Below are positions 3,647 through 64,000 of a stretch of 64,000 nt of DNA, piece after piece (the first letter of the stretch is position 1; every line of letters starts with the position of its first letter). Both the position numbers and the translations under genes were made by a program. The notes beneath the pieces are model-generated. The model was given only the letters and a program-made list of their open reading frames with translations, had not been told where the DNA came from and did no database searches. Source of the DNA: Candidatus Altiarchaeales archaeon (GTDB taxonomy: Archaea > Altiarchaeota > Altiarchaeia > IMC4 > SCGC-AAA252-I15); contig WJMO01000006.1 of assembly GCA_014727915.1 (NCBI GenBank), positions 130,137 to 194,136 on the forward strand, read 5' to 3'.

Positions 3647-3793
3647 AGCCTCAGGCGAGAATTGAACTCGCGACCTTTGCCTGTTTGGGACCTTACGGAT
3701 TTTATGCTTCTTTCTTTCCGTGGACGCTTTCTTTCTTCGCGAGAAAGAAAGGGCCCTACCAAGGCAACGCTCTACCGACTGAGCTACTGAGGC
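3647..3793 (-). tRNA. tRNA-Thr (anticodon GGU) with ~74-nt intron at canonical 37/38 position
   Basis: Minus strand reads GCCTCAG-TA-GCTC-AGTCGGTA-GAGC-G-TTGCC-TTGGTA[intron]A-GGCAA-AGGTC-GCGAG-TTCAATT-CTCGC-CTGAGGC-T; all four stems pair; intron contains perfect hairpin CTTTCTTTCTCGCGAAGAAAGAAAG. Confidence 0.65.
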
Positions 3794-35989: not shown

Positions 35990-36080
35990 CAAAACAACCC
36001 CAAATACATAATATATATATTTTATGTCGGAAAGATATATAAATGATTCAACATATATATAATCGCTCCTGTGCATTAAA

Positions 36081-36266
36081 TTGGGAAGTCTAAAAGTGGG
36101 ACCGGAAAAAATTGTTGAAAACGCAAACGTGGGTGGCAATATGAATGGATACTGTTACATACCATACCAGTGCAAACATTTCGAAAAAAAGGACGGAAAA
36201 CGATGCGAGTGCAGACACTCCATATACGGAGACTGCTTCAACCCCCAGATGATGAAGGAGGACTGA
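36081..36266 (+). CDS. Small Cys-rich protein, hypothetical
   Basis: Likely real start at internal Met (MNGYCYIPYQC...CEC...C). Confidence 0.3.
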   Translation: MGSLKVGPEKIVENANVGGNMNGYCYIPYQCKHFEKKDGKRCECRHSIYGDCFNPQMMKED

Positions 36267-36270
36267 CAGC

Positions 36271-36579
36271 ATGGACGCCATAGTGCTATACGACCAGGAC
36301 GGAAAAAGAGCATCAGAAATCTCAACATACCTGGCAGAAAAAGACAAAAAACACACTATAGCGGAGACGATAGTCGAGTGCAAGGAAAGGATAAAAGGTC
36401 ATGGTAGGGGATTCCTGATGATCGGCGAATTCGACGGAGCAGAGGACATAAAAGGTCTTGCCGAGATCATACGGGAGGAGAACATCACGCCAGTGTTCTT
36501 CGACCTCTTCGACCCCGAAGAGAAAGACTACATGAACAGACTTCAAGAATATATCAACGTCAAGACACCCCAAGGGTAG
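36271..36579 (+). CDS. Hypothetical protein, weak receiver-domain-like pattern
   Basis: 102 aa, alternating beta/alpha pattern with acidic pocket-like residues; not a canonical response regulator. Confidence 0.35.
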   Translation: MDAIVLYDQDGKRASEISTYLAEKDKKHTIAETIVECKERIKGHGRGFLMIGEFDGAEDIKGLAEIIREENITPVFFDLFDPEEKDYMNRLQEYINVKTPQG

Positions 36580-36640
36580 GGAACCGATGTGGCTGCCCTG
36601 TTTTGAGGGTGGTCAGGCTTTTAGGGCAGCCACATCAAAA

Positions 36641-37864
36641 TCACCGATCACTGAATACGTCCTTCAGGTACATCACCCAGACGGCATATGCCATGAAGAG
36701 AGGATAGTATTCGAGTAAGGTGAAGGGATACTTCAGCCCGGAGCTGAAGATGGGTATGACGAAATACGTCGCCATCACCAGGAAGTTGTAGTGCCTAACA
36801 TACTTGGGTCGGCGGAGTATGAAATAAGTAGCCGGCAACAGGAGTATGTATGAGTAGTCCTTGAACCTTGGCATAACCAGCGCGAACGCAACCGTCGACA
36901 GGAAGAGAATCATTCTGCGCCAGTCAGAGGCAGAAGAAGACCTAAGCACCATAAAAGCCTTCAAGGTCAGCAAGAGCACCGTCAGAGAAGTGAGAAGATA
37001 GATGATCTGCCATAGGATGCCCGGAGTAAATATGCCATACTCGTATCTGAGGATGTCTGACAAGTCCCCCAGGAGCTCTGGCATGCAGGGGTTCAAAACC
37101 CCCCGCTCATTGGGTATCGACACAGACAGATTAGCGCTGTTGACGTATGAATCGAACTGGGAAGGGCTTGCAAGATAGGAAAAAACGAGATAGAGCGAGA
37201 AAACAAAGGCTGAACGCAGGAAGACACGGTATCTTGCATTATCGCCAACCAACAGAACCAAGCCCAAGAAGACTATCAGGTTCAGCTTGAAAGACGAAGC
37301 AGCCAGCACGAACAGAGAGAAAAGACTGTGCCTGCCCCTAAGGAGGAAGTAGAAGCCAGACCACAGGAAAGCCTGCTCAAAAACAGAGATATTGCCCCCT
37401 ATAAGGTCCCTTATGAGAGTCATGTTATAGGCAAGCAGGCAGGCCCCATAGTAGAAAACGTCCACATCCCGTTTAAGGAAGAAATCACGCCATGAAGAGA
37501 GGAGGACCCCGACGAGCAGCAGCTTAACACCTAGGAAGACATGCTGTGCCAAGCCATATTCAAAGAATGAGAATGGCTTGAAAAAATATACGGTCAGCGG
37601 AGGATAAACGTATGTGTTGATCGGATAAGGCGCGATTTCAAGTAGAGTCTCAGAATCGTAAAGCCCAACGCCCATCGAGTGCATCTTGGCTGTGTAGTAG
37701 TAGACAGGAAAATCCCACTGTAGGTCTGCAAGGCCCGAATACATAAAAAAAGACCATAGCAAGACCAGAAGTACGGGTATGAGGGCCACAGACTCCAAAC
37801 GACCATAGGGCAGATCCTGCCTTCGATTTTCCATGTTATAGCAGTTGGAACACGGGCCAGACAC
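36641..37864 (-). CDS. Polytopic membrane protein, putative GT-C-like glycosyltransferase; paralog of 12204..13391
   Basis: 407 aa; conserved blocks shared with 12204..13391. Confidence 0.55.
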   Translation of the reverse strand: MSGPCSNCYNMENRRQDLPYGRLESVALIPVLLVLLWSFFMYSGLADLQWDFPVYYYTAKMHSMGVGLYDSETLLEIAPYPINTYVYPPLTVYFFKPFSFFEYGLAQHVFLGVKLLLVGVLLSSWRDFFLKRDVDVFYYGACLLAYNMTLIRDLIGGNISVFEQAFLWSGFYFLLRGRHSLFSLFVLAASSFKLNLIVFLGLVLLVGDNARYRVFLRSAFVFSLYLVFSYLASPSQFDSYVNSANLSVSIPNERGVLNPCMPELLGDLSDILRYEYGIFTPGILWQIIYLLTSLTVLLLTLKAFMVLRSSSASDWRRMILFLSTVAFALVMPRFKDYSYILLLPATYFILRRPKYVRHYNFLVMATYFVIPIFSSGLKYPFTLLEYYPLFMAYAVWVMYLKDVFSDR

Positions 37865-37953
37865 CCATGAAAACCCGCTGTTAAGTATTTAAATACCATG
37901 ATAAAAAAAAATCAGGGTTTTTGAAGGTTCAGAGGGGTATCTAAAAGGTTACC

Positions 37954-38856
37954 ATGAGGCTTATATTGGTTACCTGCTTATTGTCTTCGATGGTGGATAG
38001 AATAGTATTGGCCGCGGGTCTACTGTTGCTGATAGTGTTCGCAGGCCTGGTCTTGGTGAACCTTAAGGACGAGCCCCGAACCATGTTCCCAACGACCACC
38101 ACTACCGTGCCGACCACTTCAACAACAGCGACTACTTCGACGACACAGACGTCAACAACCCTCCCAAAGCCCGATTCCACTACAACCACCTCGACCACCA
38201 CCTCGACGACTTTGAGGTATGTTGAAGTGAGGTGGAGCGACCTCAGCAAATGCCGGAGCACCTCCCTGGGCAGCATGAACACGCTGCTGGCGTGGGTGGG
38301 CGACGAGCTGGAGGGGAGTTGGGGGGAGAAGCCTGAGCCCAGGGCATATGTCACATGCGACAGCCCAGAGCTAATACCCGTGGACATAGTCACACTACGC
38401 GGCGGCAGGAGCATCGAACCCGTCAACGACGTCAACGGCACCTACAGGTTCATGGTGAAATGCGGACGCAACCAGCTGGCCGAAGACCTTAACGACTGCA
38501 GGGAGCTTAAAGCCTATTTCGACAGGAACACCATAACCGGCGAAGGTTCAGACTATACGGTAGTTGCCACGTCATCCTCAACCACCACAACCTTGAAGCG
38601 TAACCCTTACCTCGACAAGTTCCGGGGTAAGGGCTATCGCAAGGTTGACATGCACATATACTGGCTGTGCCCCAGCTGCGTGCCGGCAGTGAACAACCTG
38701 GTCATCGGCGAGCCGGGGGTGAAGAGCCGCAGCCTGGCCTACAAGCAGAACGTCAGCTACGTCATATACGACCCCACAGTCGTGGACCTGGAGAGGGTGC
38801 TGGAACTATCAGGCGCGGGGGGAGACGTAGAGGTATACCAGGACCTGGAAATCTGA
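37954..38856 (+). CDS. Membrane-anchored secreted protein with poly-Thr linker
   Basis: N-terminal TM; ~45-aa Thr/Ser-rich linker; Cys-containing globular domain. Confidence 0.5.
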   Translation: MRLILVTCLLSSMVDRIVLAAGLLLLIVFAGLVLVNLKDEPRTMFPTTTTTVPTTSTTATTSTTQTSTTLPKPDSTTTTSTTTSTTLRYVEVRWSDLSKCRSTSLGSMNTLLAWVGDELEGSWGEKPEPRAYVTCDSPELIPVDIVTLRGGRSIEPVNDVNGTYRFMVKCGRNQLAEDLNDCRELKAYFDRNTITGEGSDYTVVATSSSTTTTLKRNPYLDKFRGKGYRKVDMHIYWLCPSCVPAVNNLVIGEPGVKSRSLAYKQNVSYVIYDPTVVDLERVLELSGAGGDVEVYQDLEI

Positions 38857-57659: not shown

Positions 57660-57920
57660 GCTATTTGATTTTGTGGATGCTGTTGTCGAGGGTGTATAGC
57701 TGGGCGAACCCGGGCTTCACATCCAACAACGCGATGCACGCGTTCTTCTGCTTTATGCCCTCCGCCCCCTCCAAGGGACAACCCTCCTAAAAGAGAAATA
57801 CACCGGATTCAGACTCTTCGCAGCAGCACTGATCACAACCGGAACAATCCTGATATCCATAGCCAACTAAAAAAAAAACAGAATAATTTGAACAAAAATA
57901 CAAACAATTTATAAAATTTA

Positions 57921-58007
57921 GCCCCCGGAGCAGCCACCAACCACAACCAACAATAAGAGCCAAATAGCATATGTGCTGGTTTTAGGCTAAAAAAGGCGTT
58001 AGGGACC
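57921..58007 (+). repeat. Direct repeat A flanking hicBA cassette
   Basis: gcccccggagcagccaccaaccacaaccaa...gagccaaatagca...gttagggacc; imperfect copy at 58749-58877. Confidence 0.6.
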
Positions 58008-58069
58008 AATAAATCAAAGGTTTAACATTCTTAAATAGTATTTAATTATCTTACATTCTTATATCTTTT

Positions 58070-58303
58070 ATGATGAAAAAAACTCAATTTCCCCTTGTTA
58101 TTGAAAAAGATGAGGATGGGTTCTATGTTGTAGAATGCCCAGTGTTGGAGGGGTGTTATTCTCAGGGTAAAACCTTGGATGAGGCGATGAAGAATATTCG
58201 GGAAGTCATTGAGATCTGTCTTGAGGAATCGTCCACTAAAGATTTTCTGAAAAACTATCACCCAGTAGAGTTTAGCTTCCATACTATTACTGTTGGTTCA
58301 TGA
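58070..58303 (+). CDS. hicB: HicB-family antitoxin (UPF0150-like)
   Basis: FPLVIEKDEDGFYVVECPVLEGCYSQGKTLDEAMKNIREVIE typical of HicB N-domain. Confidence 0.7.
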   Translation: MMKKTQFPLVIEKDEDGFYVVECPVLEGCYSQGKTLDEAMKNIREVIEICLEESSTKDFLKNYHPVEFSFHTITVGS

Positions 58304-58527
58304 TGGCATCGAAGCTGCCCATCGTTTCTGGCAAACAAGCAGTCAAAGCGTTCAACAAACTTGGTTATGCTGTTATTAGAAGGAGGAGTAGCCATATTCG
58401 CCTGGAACATGAAAGTAAGAAAAAGATAACAATCCCAGACCACAAAACACTAGGAAAAGGAATACTAAGAAAACTAATCCGCGATGCTGAGATAACAATA
58501 GAAGAATTCAACAAATTACTAAAGTAA
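58300..58527 (+). CDS. hicA: HicA-family toxin (YcfA-like)
   Basis: 75 aa; SGKQAVKAFNKLGYAVIRRRSSHIRLEH pattern; start overlaps hicB stop. Confidence 0.7.
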   Translation: MMASKLPIVSGKQAVKAFNKLGYAVIRRRSSHIRLEHESKKKITIPDHKTLGKGILRKLIRDAEITIEEFNKLLK

Positions 58528-58748
58528 AATTTTCACCCCAATTCTTTAAAGGAGTTCAACACCCCCCAAATCAACGAATCCTCATCCGACTCAATGAAGC
58601 TCTCGAAGCGATCGAAAAGGAAGCCAACAAATTCTTCGTGCAATTGTCCAAGAACAAGCAGTTCAGAACTTGGCTGGAGAAGACGTTCACAGCCCCGAAG
58701 ATCGAGGCGGGGTTGAGTTTGCCCTTTTTTTCGGTTGCCGGTTTCGAA

Positions 58749-58877
58749 GCCCCAGGAGCAACCACCAACCCACAACCAAGAAAAAGAGCCAAATAGCAAA
58801 TCAGCTAGAATTAAGCTAAACCCGTCGAAACTACCAACACACAACCAAGAACAGAAGCCAACAGCGTGTTAGGGTCC
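58749..58877 (+). repeat. Direct repeat B flanking hicBA cassette (with internal partial duplication)
   Basis: gccccaggagcaaccaccaacccacaaccaag...gagccaaatagca...gttagggtcc. Confidence 0.6.
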
Positions 58878-58885
58878 TTTTTCTG

Positions 58886-59722
58886 CTATGTTTTTTTGAA
58901 TTTAAGGTGTATTATCTCTGGTTGGGCGAAGAATCTTATAGGTAGTCCTGTCACTCCTACTCCATTTGTTATTATGACTTTTGTGTGTTCTGTTTCCACG
59001 ATGCCACTTATGTATTTTTCACCGTAGTCGCTTGTCTTGTAGGGGGTCCATAAACCGAAGAAAGTGACCTGTCCACCGTGTGTGTGCCCTGCTAACATAA
59101 GGTCTATTTTGTCTGTTTTAATCTCTTCTGCGTAGTCTGGATTGTGTGAGATAAGGATTACAAAGTCCTCTTCTGAAACATTCTCTATTGTTGGTTGTAT
59201 GTCCTGTGTGTCTTCCCATATGTCTCCGACGCCACCTACCCTAATCTTGTTCCCATTATCTGTAATCCATTCACCCTGGTTGTCGACGAGCGTTATATCG
59301 GCCTCCTCTAGGGCTTTCCTTGCTTGTTCTGCATCAGCCCAATGTTCATGATTGCCTAACACACCATAGACTCCCAGAGGTGCATGGAGGTCTTTTAATT
59401 CTCCTATGCAGGGGTCAATGTATTTTATGTCATCGTAGATGTAGTCGCCACCCAACAAAATAATATCTGGTTCGAGGTCGTTAATCATCCCTATTATGTC
59501 TCTTGTCCTCTCAACTGACAACAGGGGACCGCAGTGTATGTCAGCCACGAAAACAGCAGTCTTACCATTAAACGAACTGGGAACATCCTCGTCAACAATA
59601 TCTATCTCATTAACTCGAATAAGATATGCCTCAATGAACGAATAGGCAAAACATAAAAGAAACACCATTCCCATACCGACTAGTATCCTTTTCCACCGCA
59701 TCTCAAACCATATAACCCCCAA
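58886..59722 (-). CDS. Calcineurin-like metallophosphoesterase
   Basis: N-terminal TM; motifs GDYIYDD, GNHEHW, GHTHGGQ. Confidence 0.75.
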   Translation of the reverse strand: MGVIWFEMRWKRILVGMGMVFLLCFAYSFIEAYLIRVNEIDIVDEDVPSSFNGKTAVFVADIHCGPLLSVERTRDIIGMINDLEPDIILLGGDYIYDDIKYIDPCIGELKDLHAPLGVYGVLGNHEHWADAEQARKALEEADITLVDNQGEWITDNGNKIRVGGVGDIWEDTQDIQPTIENVSEEDFVILISHNPDYAEEIKTDKIDLMLAGHTHGGQVTFFGLWTPYKTSDYGEKYISGIVETEHTKVIITNGVGVTGLPIRFFAQPEIIHLKFKKT

Positions 59723-59953
59723 TCAATAAATATTTCTGGATTTCACTCTAACAACAAACAGATATATGGCTCTAAAGGTCCATCTCCCCATCAAAAGGCT
59801 ATATTGCACCAGAACAAACAGGTGAGCTACAAGAACAAACAGGGTAGGGTGTTGTCTTGTCTTGTGAAGTCTCCTTGGCCTGTTTGGGCTGAATATTGGT
59901 TTTTATCCTGTCTTGTATGCTAGGATGATGGTTCCTTGATCCTTGCCTGTATT

Positions 59954-60415
59954 TTAAGGAATAATCTCGTTGTGGATGTAACTATGAGCAGCTAAGGAAT
60001 ATGCCCCACTAATGGCATGGACCATTACACAAGCTATCAGTGAGACTAATGAAAAGATAAAATTGAAAATAAAAACTGGGATTATTATTCGGTTACGTCT
60101 TGAATTAACTTTTTTCTCTAGATAGACATGTATGCTGGAAAAACCAATCCCATAACAGATCGGGTTAATTATCAGAAAAATTTGTTCAATCATTCCCTGC
60201 ATTAAATTCATGTTCTGTGCATCTGAGAGTAGATTGAATACTGGTTTGGTAAATGTAAGGATGATATTTCCAGCTGAGAATATGCTCTGTCCTGCAATAA
60301 TAAAAATTAGTAGATAGAACATAATCTGCAAGACAATAATAAAAAAAGCAATTAGGGCCGACTTTATCCATTTGTTTTCTTGTGAAAAAATCTTGCGCCT
60401 TAAGTTACCTAGCAT
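59954..60415 (-). CDS. Membrane protein, hypothetical (AT-rich gene)
   Basis: 153 aa, 4 predicted TM helices; low GC. Confidence 0.4.
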   Translation of the reverse strand: MLGNLRRKIFSQENKWIKSALIAFFIIVLQIMFYLLIFIIAGQSIFSAGNIILTFTKPVFNLLSDAQNMNLMQGMIEQIFLIINPICYGIGFSSIHVYLEKKVNSRRNRIIIPVFIFNFIFSLVSLIACVMVHAISGAYSLAAHSYIHNEIIP

Positions 60416-60439
60416 TTTAGCCTATATCGAGTTCCTTTT

Positions 60440-63400
60440 TTATTCGAAGTTTAGTACTCCGTCCCGCAATTTGAATGTTCCGTTGTCTAGTTCTATTTTG
60501 GAGTCTGCGATTGATACTGTCAGTTCCCTTGCAGTGAATGTTGATTCTATCACTCTCATTGTGCCGTTGACGTAGATGTCGTCTACTGTACAAGTGTTGT
60601 CTGAGGTAACATTCCAGTCTCCGTATTCGGGGCATGATTCTCCACTGCATCCTGCTTCGAGTTGGATGGTTATGTTGATTGCTTCGCTGGTTGAGTATAT
60701 GCCCTCTGTTGTCTCTATTTCTATAGTGAATTCGTAGCTGTTGCCGGATGTCCCTGTTGCGTTGACACTCCAGCTGGGACTGCATGATTGCCCGTATGTC
60801 AGTGGTCCACAGTCGTAGGGGTTTTGGCTGGTTGTGTAGAATGGTGTTCCACTATTCATCGGGATTGCTCCTTTTCCTATGGTGACCGCTGTGCTGTTTA
60901 CTGCGGTCCCGTTCATGTATTCGTCTCCTGGCGTGATTTCGCATATTATGCCATCTCCTATTGTGTAGTTGGAGTATTCCAGCGTATTGCTTGTTTCATC
61001 GCTTATCACTTCACCGTTTTTGAACCAGCGGTAATGGGCAGTTGGCGTGTCATCGTCATCCCCTAGTCCCAGGTGGTTGCATTCCAGGTTCTCGCTGTAC
61101 GGTGGCGAGGAGGGCAGTATGTATGCAAGAGTGACATAGGGTTTGCATCCTCCTCCGCTAACGCAAGATGATGTGCAGGTCACTTCTGTGTCGTTCCATG
61201 TTCCATCCCCTCCCCCTATGCATGTCCTGTAGCTTTGTCCGTCGCAGTAACGGTAGTTTTGGCTGTACTGGCTGCCGTCGTGTACGCACCCGTCTGATAG
61301 GCTTGAGCAGAATTCCCCGCTGTCGTCATAGTCGTCCGGGTAGCAGTAACCTCCACTACAGACATCATCTGGGTCGCTGCCTTCCTGTTCCTTGTCTTCA
61401 CAGTCTCCGCCATCAGATACTTGTGTTAGGCAGTCTCCGTCTTTGTTGCAGTATTCTCCTGCTGAACAGTTACTGTGCATTACACACCCGATCGTGTATT
61501 CAAGATAAATGTCTTCTGGAAGCCATTGCACTTCGTTCAGTTTAGGATCTGGCTCCCCTGGTGGTCCATCACAGTCTGTTTCTGATTCGACGTCTAGATG
61601 CAGCTTAAATCCTATTATACTCTTGTTTTCGTTTAAGTAACTGTCTTGCACTTCTGTTAGTATGTCTTCGTCAAGGCTGCAGTCACAATCATGCCATGAT
61701 CCGTCATCCCAGCTCATATCACAGATGGTCGCTATTTCAGTTGAGCCTATGCCTTTATCGTCGCATGATAGGCCTCCAAAATCTTCATCTAGAATGTTTA
61801 TTGTTAGTTCGTCTCCACTATTGCCTGAACCTATTGCAGAGCAGTCTCCACTGGAACTTCCTTTTAGCCTCATTGTTTTGACGTCTAAGGTGGCGTTTTC
61901 GATGATCTCTGAGATGTTGTATGTCCACCATCCCATGGAAAAATCCCCGTATTCCAGTGCGCTGCCTGTTGCTCTTATAAGATTGTCTCTTAAGTCGCTT
62001 CCACTGCAGTTGTTTTTATCGCAGCTTTGGAAATCTAGTTCTTCTACATCGTTGTATTCTTGAAGGGGTTTAATAGTCGGGTCTATGATGATGGGATATT
62101 CTGCTTCCAATAGCCATTTTTTCGGGAGATTCAATCGTAGGATCGTATCTCCCAACTCTTTGTAGATTGTATATGATGTGTCGAGTTTTTCACTGTGGTT
62201 GTCTGTGATGAACGGCCTCTGTATTGTGAAATACGATAATTCCACTGGTATTCTGCCTTGTTGTTTCTTTAGTTTGAATGGAATATCTTCTTCAACGAGT
62301 TTTTCACTGCCATCCCAGTTTATACCATTGACAATCGGGGTTAAGTGCTCTGGATAATCAAGGATATATGTTATTTCAAAGTCCTGTGTTGAAGATGCAA
62401 AGAGATTTGAAGAGTCTACAATGATGGATTCCTTTAGCAAATCGTCTGTTAGTTCATACTTGATGTCAACACCTTCACCAAGAATATTCGCATAAAATGG
62501 TTCGTCGTTAAACATGGATAAGCTGTTTGAATCATAGAATAATTTTTGATTAGTGGTTGGCTTTATTTTAAAGGATAGTGTTGTGTCTAATGCTGTGAAA
62601 TCAACGGTCTTATCCATGTGGAATACTGCACTATAGTGTTTTTTCTCGTATTTAATGTCCTCTTCGGCTGAAACCAGGGTGGTTGTGGTTGTTGAGGTGT
62701 CCATTGTTGTAGTGGTTAGTTCAATTAGGGTGGTGGTTGTAGTTTCAATTGTCGTGGTTGTGGTCTCTGCTGGGAGGGTTGTAGTGGTTGAGGATGGTTG
62801 GAGTGTGATAGTTGTTGTGGTATCTAATAATGGAATGGTGGTGGTTGTCTCACTCGTGGAGGTAGTTGAGGATGTGCTTGTTGTGCTTACCAGGATTTTG
62901 CTTTCATCCTGTGTTGATGAGGCCAGATCTGGATCCAGGATTACGGTAACATTACCACAGTCGTCTACCAGGCATGTCACGTTCACGGTAAAATCAAAGA
63001 ACTGATTTTGGTAAACTATTTCAGAAGATACCAAAGGATCAAGAATAGATATATCTACTTTTGGAAGTGCAAGGACCGTGTAATTGAATACTGCTACGTT
63101 GTTGGTTTCGTCCAGTTCTTCGACAGAGTCTTTGCTGTCTGCTATCACGTATACATGGTTGGTTCCTGTGTTGTTTGTGACGTTCCATGTTAAATCAACA
63201 AGATAATCTTCTCCAACGTCAAGCAGGCCCATTGATGAATTATATATTTCTTCTGCTCCGGTGGGTGTTGCTACTATAATGCTTATTTCCGCGCTTGAGG
63301 TAGTTGATGCTAGTGTCCCGTCATTTGTGACCGATGCGTTTATAGTGATGATCTGGTTTTCATAGAGGTTCTGTGGCGTGACATTCAAGGTTGAGTTGAA

Positions 63401-64000
63401 GTCGGGCATATCCGCACCGATTGCCGTGAAAATTGTGTTATGATCAATGAGCGCCCATACGTATTTATTGATGGTATCGACTCCAGTTATTGCTTCTTCA
63501 AGCCATTCTGAAGCGGTTTCATTCCACCAGTGAATTTTTAGAGTTTCTTCTGGAACGGTTAATGCACTGGAATTATAGGGGATTTTCAACAAGAAATAAT
63601 TGAATGATCCACTGATCTCAACATTCACATATTTACCTATGCTACTGTTATCACCGCCAGTTGGAGCAGAGATTATATCAAATCCTGAGAAATATGCAAG
63701 GGAATCCAAACTGTTTAGGATTCCAAGTATGCCCTCTGTTTCGTTAGTTGGTGGTTCTGGTTTTACTAGTATTGTTGCATAAGCCTGGTTATTTGCTTCA
63801 TCAGTTTCTTCAATATCATCTTGGGAGTCTATTTCTACAAATATTGTATGGTTATTTGCATCGGGGATATTCCATGATACGCCAACTTGTTTACTTCCTC
63901 CTGCTTCGACAACATCCGCAATGCTTGAACCTATGTATACTCCTCCATCACTTATGTTACCATCATAAAAACTAACATTAACGTCATATGCATTGCTACT
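60440..64000 (-). CDS. Giant surface protein (partial, N-terminus beyond window): CARDB-like repeats, ~90-aa poly-Thr linker, Cys-rich C-terminal domains
   Basis: Reading frame stays open upstream of track start (TTG 63709) to the window edge; DETNN-type motifs (ELDETNNVAVFNYTV; ETDEANNQAYATILV). Confidence 0.65.
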   Translation of the reverse strand, partial: SSNAYDVNVSFYDGNISDGGVYIGSSIADVVEAGGSKQVGVSWNIPDANNHTIFVEIDSQDDIEETDEANNQAYATILVKPEPPTNETEGILGILNSLDSLAYFSGFDIISAPTGGDNSSIGKYVNVEISGSFNYFLLKIPYNSSALTVPEETLKIHWWNETASEWLEEAITGVDTINKYVWALIDHNTIFTAIGADMPDFNSTLNVTPQNLYENQIITINASVTNDGTLASTTSSAEISIIVATPTGAEEIYNSSMGLLDVGEDYLVDLTWNVTNNTGTNHVYVIADSKDSVEELDETNNVAVFNYTVLALPKVDISILDPLVSSEIVYQNQFFDFTVNVTCLVDDCGNVTVILDPDLASSTQDESKILVSTTSTSSTTSTSETTTTIPLLDTTTTITLQPSSTTTTLPAETTTTTIETTTTTLIELTTTTMDTSTTTTTLVSAEEDIKYEKKHYSAVFHMDKTVDFTALDTTLSFKIKPTTNQKLFYDSNSLSMFNDEPFYANILGEGVDIKYELTDDLLKESIIVDSSNLFASSTQDFEITYILDYPEHLTPIVNGINWDGSEKLVEEDIPFKLKKQQGRIPVELSYFTIQRPFITDNHSEKLDTSYTIYKELGDTILRLNLPKKWLLEAEYPIIIDPTIKPLQEYNDVEELDFQSCDKNNCSGSDLRDNLIRATGSALEYGDFSMGWWTYNISEIIENATLDVKTMRLKGSSSGDCSAIGSGNSGDELTINILDEDFGGLSCDDKGIGSTEIATICDMSWDDGSWHDCDCSLDEDILTEVQDSYLNENKSIIGFKLHLDVESETDCDGPPGEPDPKLNEVQWLPEDIYLEYTIGCVMHSNCSAGEYCNKDGDCLTQVSDGGDCEDKEQEGSDPDDVCSGGYCYPDDYDDSGEFCSSLSDGCVHDGSQYSQNYRYCDGQSYRTCIGGGDGTWNDTEVTCTSSCVSGGGCKPYVTLAYILPSSPPYSENLECNHLGLGDDDDTPTAHYRWFKNGEVISDETSNTLEYSNYTIGDGIICEITPGDEYMNGTAVNSTAVTIGKGAIPMNSGTPFYTTSQNPYDCGPLTYGQSCSPSWSVNATGTSGNSYEFTIEIETTEGIYSTSEAINITIQLEAGCSGESCPEYGDWNVTSDNTCTVDDIYVNGTMRVIESTFTARELTVSIADSKIELDNGTFKLRDGVLNFE

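What the first reader, a model, noticed from the sequence alone, without database searches (positions are those of the whole stretch)
57921..58877. hicBA toxin-antitoxin cassette flanked by imperfect ~85-130-bp direct repeats
Repeats at 57921-58007 and 58749-58877 bracket the HicB/HicA pair; repeat B has an internal partial duplication. Between hicA and repeat B an open frame encodes ...LNEALEAIEKEANKFFVQLSKNKQFRTWLEKTF... without a start codon, which looks like a gene remnant. This is consistent with a small inserted cassette.
Basis: seen in the sequence. Interest (0 to 1): 0.55.

Follow-up and report, generated by a model that had tools for sequence, protein, structure and literature searches.

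The report
hicBA toxin-antitoxin between conserved CA-rich repeats
An ordinary, intact hicBA toxin-antitoxin pair sits at the edge of a foreign-looking low-GC block in an uncultured Altiarchaeales genome, and the "repeats" around it are copies of a small conserved non-coding element that also occurs next to unrelated genes in other metagenomes, not footprints of the pair's own insertion.

Summary
Repeat A (57920-58007) and repeat B (58748-58877) share 73 nt at 84% identity plus a common tail GTTAGGG(A/T)CC. B holds two tandem cores. hicB (58070-58303) and hicA (58303-58527) are intact.

- hicBA is not a small island in host DNA. It is the first gene pair of a block of at least 6 kb with GC3 of 0.35-0.44, against 0.65-0.77 upstream.
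- The repeats belong to a family: a core of about 48 nt, rich in C and A and poor in T. Two further copies (87-90% identical) lie in unrelated metagenome contigs beside unrelated genes.
- A stretch of about 30 nt in the core is almost invariant. The adjoining extension is only 72% identical between A and B. So the repeats are old paralogues under constraint, not a target-site duplication.
- The "gene remnant" is unsupported. It has no homologues, and shuffled sequence gives equally long open frames 57% of the time.
- attC, DGR, CRISPR, structured-RNA and MITE readings were tested and not met. No recombinase lies nearby.

Most likely the element marks recombination junctions in a variable region that hicBA helps to stabilise. 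The element's function remains unknown, and interest is modest.

The parts
57920..58007 (+). Repeat A. It consists of the CA-rich core (57920-57966), an extension (57967-57991), a linker, and the tail GCGTTAGGGACC (57996-58007). It lies at the left edge of the low-GC3 block.
   Evidence: nhmmer E = 3.8e-10
58025..58069 (+). Putative hicBA promoter. A TATA-like TTTAATTA (58041-58048) lies 22-29 nt before the ATG, which suggests a leaderless mRNA. It is flanked by two 12-nt direct repeats ACATTCTTA(A/T)AT (58025-58036 and 58053-58064).
   Evidence: Sequence reading; repeat family D11. The promoter role is inference from archaeal promoter geometry.
58070..58303 (+). hicB antitoxin, 77 aa. It has the HicB N-terminal fold only and no DNA-binding domain.
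   Evidence: PF15919 E = 1.7e-11. Annotated as a HicB family antitoxin in the MAG, and a singleton at 90% identity.
58303..58527 (+). hicA toxin, 74 aa (75 aa if read from 58300). Its start overlaps the hicB stop codon (ATGA).
   Evidence: PF07927 E = 9.4e-15; PDB 1WHZ E = 4e-4; singleton at 90% identity
58528..58747 (+). T-poor spacer carrying the open frame 'X'. The MAG annotates a 50-aa ORF at 58644-58796. A terminator-like hairpin followed by T7 lies at 58706-58731. It is probably a non-coding 3' region of the hicBA transcript.
58748..58877 (+). Repeat B. It consists of core B1 (58748-58795), an extension (58796-58820), core B2 (58815-58862 by profile) and the tail GCGTGTTAGGGTCC (58864-58877).
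   Evidence: nhmmer E = 5.9e-10 and 2e-9
58886..59701 (-). Metallophosphoesterase (MPE) gene with low GC3. It lies between repeat B and motif 2, whereas in contig L014 these two non-coding motifs are only 40 nt apart.
   Evidence: PF00149
59782..59844 (+). Motif 2, a second conserved CA-rich non-coding element. It is 79% identical over 62 nt to L014 895-956. It includes a tandem AACAAACAGG and is followed by an imperfect palindrome at 59829-59865.

Best explanation
Shown:
- hicB-hicA is an intact type II toxin-antitoxin operon. HicA is an RNase-type toxin that HicB neutralises by binding.
- It is the first operon of a block of at least 6 kb with foreign composition, in a Candidatus Altiarchaeales MAG.
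- The two flanking repeats are paralogous copies of one composite non-coding unit. The basic unit is a core of about 48 nt, rich in C and A and poor in T, followed by the tail GTTAGGGNCC. B is a partial unit plus a full unit. A is the same composite with the second core deleted.
- The unit belongs to a small family that also occurs in other uncultured organisms beside unrelated genes. Its central ~30 nt are almost invariant.

Inferred:
- The repeats pre-date hicBA or travelled with it. They are not a duplication made by its insertion.
- The hicBA segment came to lie between two copies through recombination at the element. This could have been Campbell-type insertion of DNA carrying one copy into a resident copy, or unequal exchange. 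It can be lost the same way.
- The element therefore marks junctions at which accessory genes are exchanged in this variable region.
- The toxin-antitoxin pair acts as an addiction module that stabilises the adjacent acquired block.
For: hicBA:
- Pfam matches, the 4-nt overlap of the two genes, and a TATA-like box 22-29 nt upstream of the start.

Foreign block:
- GC falls from about 54% to about 40% near 57.8-57.9 kb.
- GC3 is 0.65-0.77 for ten upstream genes and 0.35-0.44 for hicB, hicA, MPE, the 153-aa gene and the 1089-aa gene.

Family:
- A metagenome scan followed by blastn and nhmmer found full-length cores only in A, B1, B2, L013 and L014.
- L014 shares a second motif with the window at 59782-59844, which independently shows relatedness.
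- The neighbours differ. In L014 they are CorA and a 167-aa ORF. In L013 they are a methyltransferase and a convergent Fic/Doc-like gene.

Constraint and age:
- The alignment has a run of nearly invariant columns across the core.
- The A-B1 core is about 90% identical and the extension is 72% identical (18 of 25 positions, read).
- Core identity within the window (85-90%) is no higher than between genomes (87-90%).

Composite homology of A and B.

Variable region:
- The closest PEMT orthologues (69-74% aa identity) have different neighbouring genes in every relative.

Literature:
- hicAB/hicBA operons in ANME-1 archaea lie in structurally variable hotspots and stabilise plasmids when expressed in E. 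coli (PMC13385816).
Against: - No integrase, transposase or reverse transcriptase lies among the ORFs scanned at 47-64 kb.
- No empty site or alternative occupant of this exact locus could be found, because the nearest relatives are only about 70% identical in protein sequence and are not syntenic.
- Only five copies of the element are known, and none lies elsewhere in the 64-kb window. The copy number across the whole genome is unknown.
- The rest of the source contig (536,761 bp) could not be retrieved.
- The sharp compositional break could be a chimeric assembly join.
- The recombination step is an inference from the arrangement alone.
Confidence: 0.42

Rival explanations
1. The CA-rich element is a transcript-level or regulatory signal of the low-GC donor lineage. 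It could be a 3'-UTR or termination or processing element, or a protein-binding site. On this view the element has nothing to do with gene mobility, and hicBA merely lies between two intergenic copies.
For: - In all four loci the CA-rich strand lies downstream of, and in the same direction as, a gene. In two loci a convergent gene ends 8-60 nt from it.
- The near-invariant core next to a decayed extension indicates selection on the sequence.
- Oligo-T tracts and a hairpin followed by T7 lie next to B.
- No recombinase is nearby.
Against: - No conserved promoter is present. There is no conserved RNA structure on the + strand and only a weak invariant stem on the - strand. No Rfam family matches.
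- Only three copies lie in 64 kb that contain dozens of genes, so it is not a general terminator.
- It does not explain why A and B share a composite architecture, or why the MPE gene separates motifs that are adjacent in L014.
Confidence: 0.22
2. The element is a small selfish dispersed repeat (MITE-like or REP-like) of the lineage. A, B1 and B2 are independent or locally duplicated insertions near hicBA.
For: - The left boundary is sharp (AGCCCC) and the right boundary is a common tail.
- It occurs in different organisms next to unrelated genes.
- B contains a tandem partial duplication.
Against: - It has no terminal inverted repeats, no target-site duplications and no palindromic structure.
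- No other copy lies in the 64-kb window or in about 90 kb of related Altiarchaeota loci.
- Only 2 true hits came from 241 million metagenome records with an 18-base core pattern.
- The uneven conservation of core and extension is not what neutral mobile copies would show.
Confidence: 0.12
3. A hicBA cassette of about 0.8 kb was inserted into host DNA, and this duplicated the target sequence (the 3' end of a now-decayed gene X) as flanking direct repeats.
For: - Direct repeats flank the pair, and hicBA has low GC.
- Both A and B contain an in-register ...RAK-stop codon string in one frame, once a 1-nt frameshift in A is allowed for.
Against: - The low-GC3 block extends at least 5 kb beyond B.
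- The repeats are 84% identical, and their cores are as similar to copies in other metagenomes as to each other.
- X has no homologues, and its open frame is expected by chance.
- No ORF runs through the core in L013 or L014.
- A duplication of 73-130 bp is far longer than any transposase-made target-site duplication (established knowledge).
Confidence: 0.05
4. The arrangement is an integron-like cassette array. The repeats would be attC-type sites with the tail GTTAGGG as the R' box, and hicBA and MPE would be cassettes.
For: - The tail resembles GTTRRRY.
- Both the hicBA segment (from 58008) and the MPE segment (from 58878) begin immediately after a tail.
- TA cassettes are common in integrons, and integrons or CALINs exist in archaeal MAGs (PMC9668308).
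Against: - Neither strand of A or B folds into a hairpin as single-stranded DNA (z-scores from +0.9 to -1.2).
- No R''/L'' arm complements the tail. The seventh base is G, not Y.
- No integrase was found among the ORFs examined.
- Only 2-3 sites are present.
Confidence: 0.04
5. The compositional break is an assembly chimera. The MAG contig would join Altiarchaeales DNA (54% GC) to DNA of a different, lower-GC organism near 57.8-57.9 kb, so that 'island edge' is an artefact. The repeats and hicBA would then simply belong to that other genome.
For: - GC3 steps abruptly by about 30 points and does not return within the window.
- The motif-bearing contigs L013 and L014 have 46-47% GC, like the block.
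Against: - Identical HicB and HicA proteins carry two separate GenBank accessions each, which suggests a second MAG record.
- The nearest MPE homologues are archaeal genes in an L37ae-Pcc1-prefoldin context, so the block is at least archaeal.
- No repeat at the junction is long or similar enough to cause a mis-join.
Confidence: 0.1

Closest known systems
HicAB/HicBA type II toxin-antitoxin modules (Makarova, Grishin and Koonin 2006; reviewed in PMC11594946; archaeal examples in variable hotspots in PMC13385816)
   Same: It has a HicA_toxin domain and a HicB N-terminal domain. The two genes are small and overlap in one operon in the hicB-then-hicA order also reported in ANME-1. It lies in a variable, compositionally foreign region.
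   Different: HicB is the short form (77 aa) with no DNA-binding domain. Nothing else is unusual. Toxicity and neutralisation were not tested.
att-site direct repeats of integrated elements, and tandem accretion of islands at one att site
   Same: Imperfect direct repeats bracket acquired DNA. One copy lies at the compositional boundary. An identical block of 15 nt (AAGAGCCAAATAGCA) lies within more diverged flanks, as in attL/attR hybrids.
   Different: No integrase is present, and no tRNA or gene serves as a target. The bracketed segment is only about 740 bp. The right end of the large block was not seen. The 'att' sequence has no dyad symmetry.
Integron gene cassettes with attC sites, including sedentary chromosomal arrays that carry TA cassettes (PMC9668308)
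   Same: The unit is a cassette-sized gene followed by a repeat of 90-130 nt. The tail resembles the R' box. A TA module with its own promoter sits among accessory genes.
   Different: The repeats are not imperfect palindromes and do not fold as single-stranded DNA. No IntI is present. The orientation of the neighbouring gene (MPE) is inverted.
Bacterial REP/BIME and MITE-type intergenic repeats
   Same: It is a short conserved non-coding unit found in intergenic regions, locally duplicated in tandem, and present beside unrelated genes.
   Different: It has no palindrome, TIR or TSD. Copy number in the sequence available is very low. The core is strongly strand-asymmetric (C+A rich, with about 7-13% T).

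Membership tests
HicAB type II toxin-antitoxin | Toxin with a HicA (dsRBD-like) domain | tested here: met
   PF07927 E = 9.4e-15, covering profile positions 1-58 of 58. Aligns to PDB 1WHZ.
HicAB type II toxin-antitoxin | Adjacent antitoxin with a HicB (RNase H-like partial fold) domain | tested here: met
   PF15919 E = 1.7e-11 above the gathering score; PF21748 just below its cut-off.
HicAB type II toxin-antitoxin | Two small genes in one operon, intact reading frames | tested here: met
   The stop and start codons overlap by 4 nt (ATGA at 58300-58303), and both ORFs are complete.
HicAB type II toxin-antitoxin | HicA toxicity (RNA cleavage) neutralised by HicB | not testable with these tools
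   Needs expression of hicA with and without hicB in a host.
Integron cassette / attC site | Imperfect inverted repeats (R''-L''...L'-R') that fold into a hairpin as single-stranded DNA | tested here: not met
   ssDNA folds of A and B on both strands gave MFE from -6.6 to -12.6 kcal/mol and z-scores from +0.86 to -1.24 against shuffles, with no long stem.
Integron cassette / attC site | R' box GTTRRRY at the 3' end | tested here: inconclusive
   GTTAGGG in A and B2, and GTTAAAG in L014. The first six bases fit, but the seventh is G rather than Y.
Integron cassette / attC site | Integron integrase (IntI) near the array | tested here: not met
   No recombinase domain in the ORFs of 47-64 kb. The rest of the window was not scanned by Pfam.
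Transposon or IS insertion with target-site duplication | Short, (near-)identical direct repeats directly abutting the element ends, with a transposase or TIRs | tested here: not met
   The repeats are 73-130 nt long and 84% identical. There are no TIRs and no transposase.
Integrase-mediated integrated element (attL/attR) | Tyrosine or serine integrase gene at one end | tested here: not met
   None between A and the window end. The right end of the block lies outside the window.
Integrase-mediated integrated element (attL/attR) | Identical core shared by the two flanking sites | tested here: inconclusive
   The longest identical blocks are 15 nt and 10 nt within 84% overall identity.
Diversity-generating retroelement (TR/VR pair) | Reverse transcriptase nearby, and the VR inside the 3' end of a target ORF | tested here: not met
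   No RT-like ORF in the window by Y[AVILMC]DD scan. Copy A is not in an ORF.
Diversity-generating retroelement (TR/VR pair) | Mismatches confined to adenines of one copy | tested here: inconclusive
   9 of 11 substitutions have A in copy B, but B is 48% A. My rough binomial estimate is p of about 0.015.
MITE- or REP-type dispersed repeat | Many dispersed copies per genome | tested here: inconclusive
   No other copy lies in the 64-kb window or in the related loci. The whole genome was not available.
Structured non-coding RNA | Conserved secondary structure or a match to a known family | tested here: not met
   RNAalifold found 0 pairs on the + strand and -4.7 kcal/mol with no informative covariation on the - strand. 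Rfam at E <= 10 returned nothing relevant.

The most novel reading that the evidence does not exclude
The CA-rich core plus GTTAGGGNCC tail is the recombination site of an undescribed gene-cassette exchange system in Altiarchaeales-like archaea. This system would not depend on a hairpin. hicBA (58008-58747) and the MPE gene (58878 to about 59740) would be cassettes inserted directly 3' of a tail. L014 would show the unoccupied state, with motif 1 and motif 2 adjacent. The recombinase would be encoded elsewhere.
Probability: 0.08. Interest if true: 0.75.

Novelty: new member of a known kind. Interest (0 to 1): 0.3.

Why it matters
The toxin-antitoxin pair is routine. The useful correction is that the flanking repeats are not an insertion scar. 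They are copies of a conserved non-coding element, strongly strand-asymmetric, that is shared between uncultured archaeal genomes and sits at gene-content breakpoints.

If the element proves to be a recombination junction, it would give a handle on how accessory genes are exchanged in Altiarchaeota and DPANN-type archaea, for which almost no mobile-element biology is known. If it is a transcript-end signal, it would be a lineage-specific regulatory motif. Either way, the present evidence (five copies) is thin.

Tried and rejected
1. attC or integron reading. The tail looked like an R' box, but single-stranded DNA folding shows no hairpin and no IntI is present. Rejected.
2. DGR TR/VR reading. 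The mismatches are biased towards adenine in copy B, but no RT is present and copy A is not in an ORF. Rejected.
3. Structured RNA. Single-sequence folds, alignment folds and Rfam were all negative.
4. Coding readings of the core, on either strand:
   - + strand: 'PPTHNQEQEP...stop'.
   - - strand: 'LALVLGCVLVV...' (signal-peptide-like) and 'WLLFLVVCWWFR...' (TM anchor plus basic tail).
   - No frame is open beyond 16-73 codons consistently across the five copies. Rejected.
5. CRISPR mini-array. B1 and B2 are spaced 69 nt apart, but there is no CRISPR-DR match at the motif, copies elsewhere are single, and the GAAAC end is on the wrong side. Rejected.
6. Archaeal origin ORB box. There is a loose resemblance of GGTGGTTTCGNCNGGGG to ORB consensus sequences recalled from memory. 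However, copies elsewhere are single, no orc1/cdc6 was seen nearby, and there is no skew switch at 58 kb. Not pursued.
7. Gene remnant X. No homologues, and the open frame is expected by chance.
8. An EamA-like C-terminal remnant at 57700-57870, which I suspected from the peptide ...FAAALITTGTILISIAN*. No Pfam hit even at E <= 10. Dropped.
9. Empty-site comparison. PEMT orthologues in 7 related loci have non-syntenic neighbours and no motif. MPE orthologues sit in a ribosomal/Pcc1/prefoldin cluster without motifs. Uninformative.
10. Retrieval of the source contig or genome failed. Four exact-protein look-ups found no record, and the genome-contig scan found only two chance Pirellula hits.
11. 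Viral, plasmid and phage collections gave no relative of hicA, of the motifs or of the region.
12. The weak similarity of the L003 intergenic region downstream of PEMT to the extension is not significant (z of about 1.5).
Full report

Yes.
- Window 57920-57991 and 58748-58820 align over 73 nt at 83.6% identity with a single 1-nt indel (blastn E = 6e-15 against the 64-kb window; repeat families D1, D2 and D4).
- Both copies end in a shared tail: GCGTTAGGGACC at 57996-58007 and GCGTGTTAGGGTCC at 58864-58877.
- Repeat B contains a second, partial copy. 58829-58861 is 85% identical to 58760-58792.
- No other copy exists in the window.
- Between the repeats lie hicB (58070-58303; PF15919, E = 1.7e-11) and hicA (58303-58527; PF07927, E = 9.4e-15). 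Their reading frames overlap by 4 nt. HicA aligns to the HicA-like PDB chain 1WHZ.
- A TATA-like TTTAATTA lies 22-29 nt before the hicB ATG. It is flanked by two 12-nt direct repeats. By inference from archaeal promoter geometry, this suggests a leaderless transcript with its own promoter.

**2. Where is this?**

- The only database match to the open frame downstream of hicA is a 50-aa hypothetical protein of a Candidatus Altiarchaeales MAG, on a contig of 536,761 bp. The flanking PEMT-like protein and the metallophosphoesterase (MPE) match the same MAG at 100%.
- An intron-containing tRNA at 3647-3793 fits an archaeon.
- GC content falls from about 54% to about 40% near 57.8-57.9 kb and stays low to the window end.
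- GC3 makes the break sharper. Ten genes between 43.7 and 57.7 kb have GC3 of 0.53-0.77, and nine of them 0.65-0.77. By contrast hicB is 0.40, hicA 0.36, MPE 0.43, the 153-aa membrane gene 0.35 and the 1089-aa CARDB surface protein 0.44.
- hicBA is therefore not a small foreign insert in host DNA. It is the first operon of a compositionally foreign block of at least 6 kb. Repeat A lies at the block's left edge and repeat B inside it.

**3. What are the repeats?**

- A scan of metagenome contigs used an 18-base pattern common to the three window copies and gave 114 candidate stretches. blastn and an nhmmer profile showed that only two are genuine full-length copies. All other candidates match only the pattern itself.
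  - L014 799-845 is 89% identical to B1 and 87.5% to A.
  - L013 359-313 is 90% identical to B2.
- L014 is independently related to the window. Its positions 895-956 match window 59782-59844 (62 nt at 79% identity, E = 7e-8). I call this second element 'motif 2'.
- The neighbouring genes are unrelated to those in the window.
  - In L014 they are a CorA C-terminus and a 167-aa ORF.
  - In L013 they are a methyltransferase and a convergent Fic/Doc-like gene.
- The five copies define a core of about 48 nt: AGCCCCNGGNGNAACCACCAACNCACAACCAANAANANGAGCCAA. A stretch of about 30 nt within it is almost invariant.
- The core is followed, after about 5 nt, by a tail: GTTAGGG(A/T)CC in the window and GTTAAAGCC in L014.
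- Architecture, from reading:
  - B is a partial unit (B1 plus a 25-nt extension) followed by a full unit (B2 plus tail).
  - A is the same composite with the second core deleted.
  - A and B are therefore paralogues of one composite.
- They are old paralogues. The core is about 90% identical between A and B1, but the extension is only 72% identical (18 of 25 positions).
- Core identity within the window (85-90%) is no higher than between the window and the foreign contigs (87-90%).
- This pattern means constraint on the core, or spread of a conserved sequence. It is not a duplication created when hicBA arrived.

**4. What the element is not**

- *Not coding.* No frame on either strand stays open across the five copies.
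- *Not a structured RNA.*
  - Single-sequence folds are unremarkable.
  - RNAalifold predicts no pairs on the CA-rich strand. On the other strand it predicts only a weak stem without covariation.
  - Rfam finds nothing at E <= 10.
- *Not an attC site.* The tail resembles GTTRRRY, but neither strand of A or B forms a hairpin as single-stranded DNA (z-scores +0.9 to -1.2), and there is no complementary left arm.
- *Not a DGR template/variable pair.* 9 of 11 substitutions have adenine in copy B. However, there is no reverse transcriptase in the window, and copy A is not in an ORF.
- *No TIRs or TSDs.*
- *No recombinase.* No integrase or transposase was found among the ORFs of 47-64 kb.
- *Not found in mobile-element collections.* Plasmid, phage and viral collections hold nothing similar.

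**5. The 'gene remnant'**

- The open frame from about 58491 to 58796 is real, but the region is T-poor. Four of its six frames are open for at least 70 codons.
- Dinucleotide-preserving shuffles give an open stretch of at least 89 codons in 57% of cases.
- The peptide has no Pfam match even at E <= 10.
- It has no homologue in the 5.8 billion-protein search other than the MAG's own ORF call.
- The exhaustive HMMER scan of 1.84 billion representatives added only two spurious hits, to repeat-rich MATH and FN3 proteins.
- The frame also contains a hairpin followed by T7 that looks like a terminator (58706-58731).
- The region is best read as the non-coding 3' part of the hicBA transcription unit. 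A decayed orphan gene cannot be excluded.

**6. Comparison with relatives**

- The closest PEMT orthologues are only 69-74% identical. Their neighbourhoods differ from the window and from each other on both sides. None carries the motif, hicBA or X. No empty site can therefore be defined, but the region is clearly variable in this lineage.
- The closest MPE homologues (63-64% identity) lie in a conserved L37ae / small ORF / Pcc1 / MPE / prefoldin cluster at 56-60% GC, without motifs. The window's low-GC3 MPE therefore looks like an acquired copy.
- In L014, motif 1 and motif 2 are 40 nt apart. In the window they are separated by 58878 to about 59740, which is essentially just the MPE gene.
- Both the hicBA segment (from 58008) and the MPE segment (from 58878) start directly after a GTTAGGGNCC tail.
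- With one comparator this is suggestive only. It is what one would see if the element marks points where genes are inserted or exchanged.

**7. Best explanation and rivals**

*Shown:*
- An intact hicBA module.
- A compositional boundary at repeat A.
- A conserved family of non-coding elements.
- A composite paralogy between A and B.

*Inferred (confidence about 0.4):*
- hicBA came to lie between two copies by recombination at the element. This could be Campbell-type insertion of DNA carrying one copy, or unequal exchange. It could be lost the same way.
- The TA pair stabilises the neighbouring acquired block. This agrees with hicAB/hicBA operons lying in structurally variable hotspots of ANME-1 archaea and stabilising plasmids experimentally (PMC13385816).

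*Rivals:*

| Rival | Confidence |
|---|---|
| Transcript-end or regulatory element unrelated to mobility | 0.22 |
| Selfish dispersed repeat | 0.12 |
| Chimeric assembly join explaining the boundary | 0.10 |
| Integron-like array | 0.04 |

Each rival is refutable by the whole-genome copy census, by read mapping and by 3'-end mapping, as listed under next steps.

**8. Novelty and verdict**

- The TA module is a new member of a well-known kind.
- The flanking repeats are real, but they are not an insertion scar.
- The CA-rich element and motif 2 appear to be undescribed conserved non-coding sequences of an uncultured archaeal lineage. With five copies and no mechanism, they are a lead rather than a finding.
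- Interest is 0.3.
- The most novel reading not excluded is a cassette-exchange site that does not depend on a hairpin. I give it about 8% probability.

Noticed in passing
window 57800-64000: Every gene from hicB to the window end has GC3 of 0.35-0.44, against 0.65-0.77 for nine of ten genes upstream. This is a foreign block of at least 6 kb or a chimeric join, and its right end lies outside the window.
   Followed up: partly
window 59782-59844; L014 895-956: A second conserved CA-rich non-coding element ('motif 2', 79% identity over 62 nt). It has a tandem AACAAACAGG and is followed by an imperfect palindrome at 59829-59865. It lies 40 nt from motif 1 in L014 but is separated from it by the MPE gene in the window.
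   Followed up: partly
window 58025-58064: Two 12-nt direct repeats ACATTCTTA(A/T)AT flank the TATA-like box upstream of hicB. They could be an operator, although this HicB lacks a DNA-binding domain.
   Followed up: no
window 57920-57991 vs 58748-58820: 9 of the 11 substitutions between repeats A and B have adenine in copy B. The bias resembles a DGR, but there is no reverse transcriptase and no target ORF. It remains unexplained.
   Followed up: partly
window 58886-59701 (-); L126-L131: The metallophosphoesterase here is isolated and has low GC3. Its closest homologues (63-64% aa identity) sit in a conserved L37ae / Pcc1 / MPE / prefoldin cluster at 56-60% GC. This suggests that the window copy is an acquired xenologue.
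   Followed up: partly
L013 74-253 (+): A Fic/Doc-like gene end (...MMNFILHRKGYP...) converges on the motif copy in L013. This is a second toxin-type gene next to the element. The identification comes from reading the motif and was not tested with a profile.
   Followed up: no
window 3647-3793 (-): Rfam finds a 147-nt tRNA (58 bits), presumably containing an intron, that ARAGORN misses entirely.
   Followed up: no
window 58706-58731 (+): A hairpin GGCGGGGTTGAGTTTGCC followed by T7 lies inside the annotated 50-aa hypothetical ORF. It is probably the hicBA terminator.
   Followed up: partly
window 36000-38000: A second low-GC patch (0.46-0.47) lies within the otherwise 51-59% GC part of the window. 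It was not examined.
   Followed up: no
L003 10735-10790: The intergenic DNA just downstream of the PEMT orthologue in a relative contains GCGTTAGCTGAATGAAGCTAAAAGATACCCCCA. This loosely resembles the extension of repeat B and the sequence upstream of the L014 core. The similarity is not significant against shuffles (z of about 1.5).
   Followed up: yes
window 60440-63709 (-) and beyond: A surface protein of 1089 aa or more has one CARDB domain and long Thr-rich linkers. Together with a 153-aa membrane protein it forms the bulk of the low-GC3 block.
   Followed up: no
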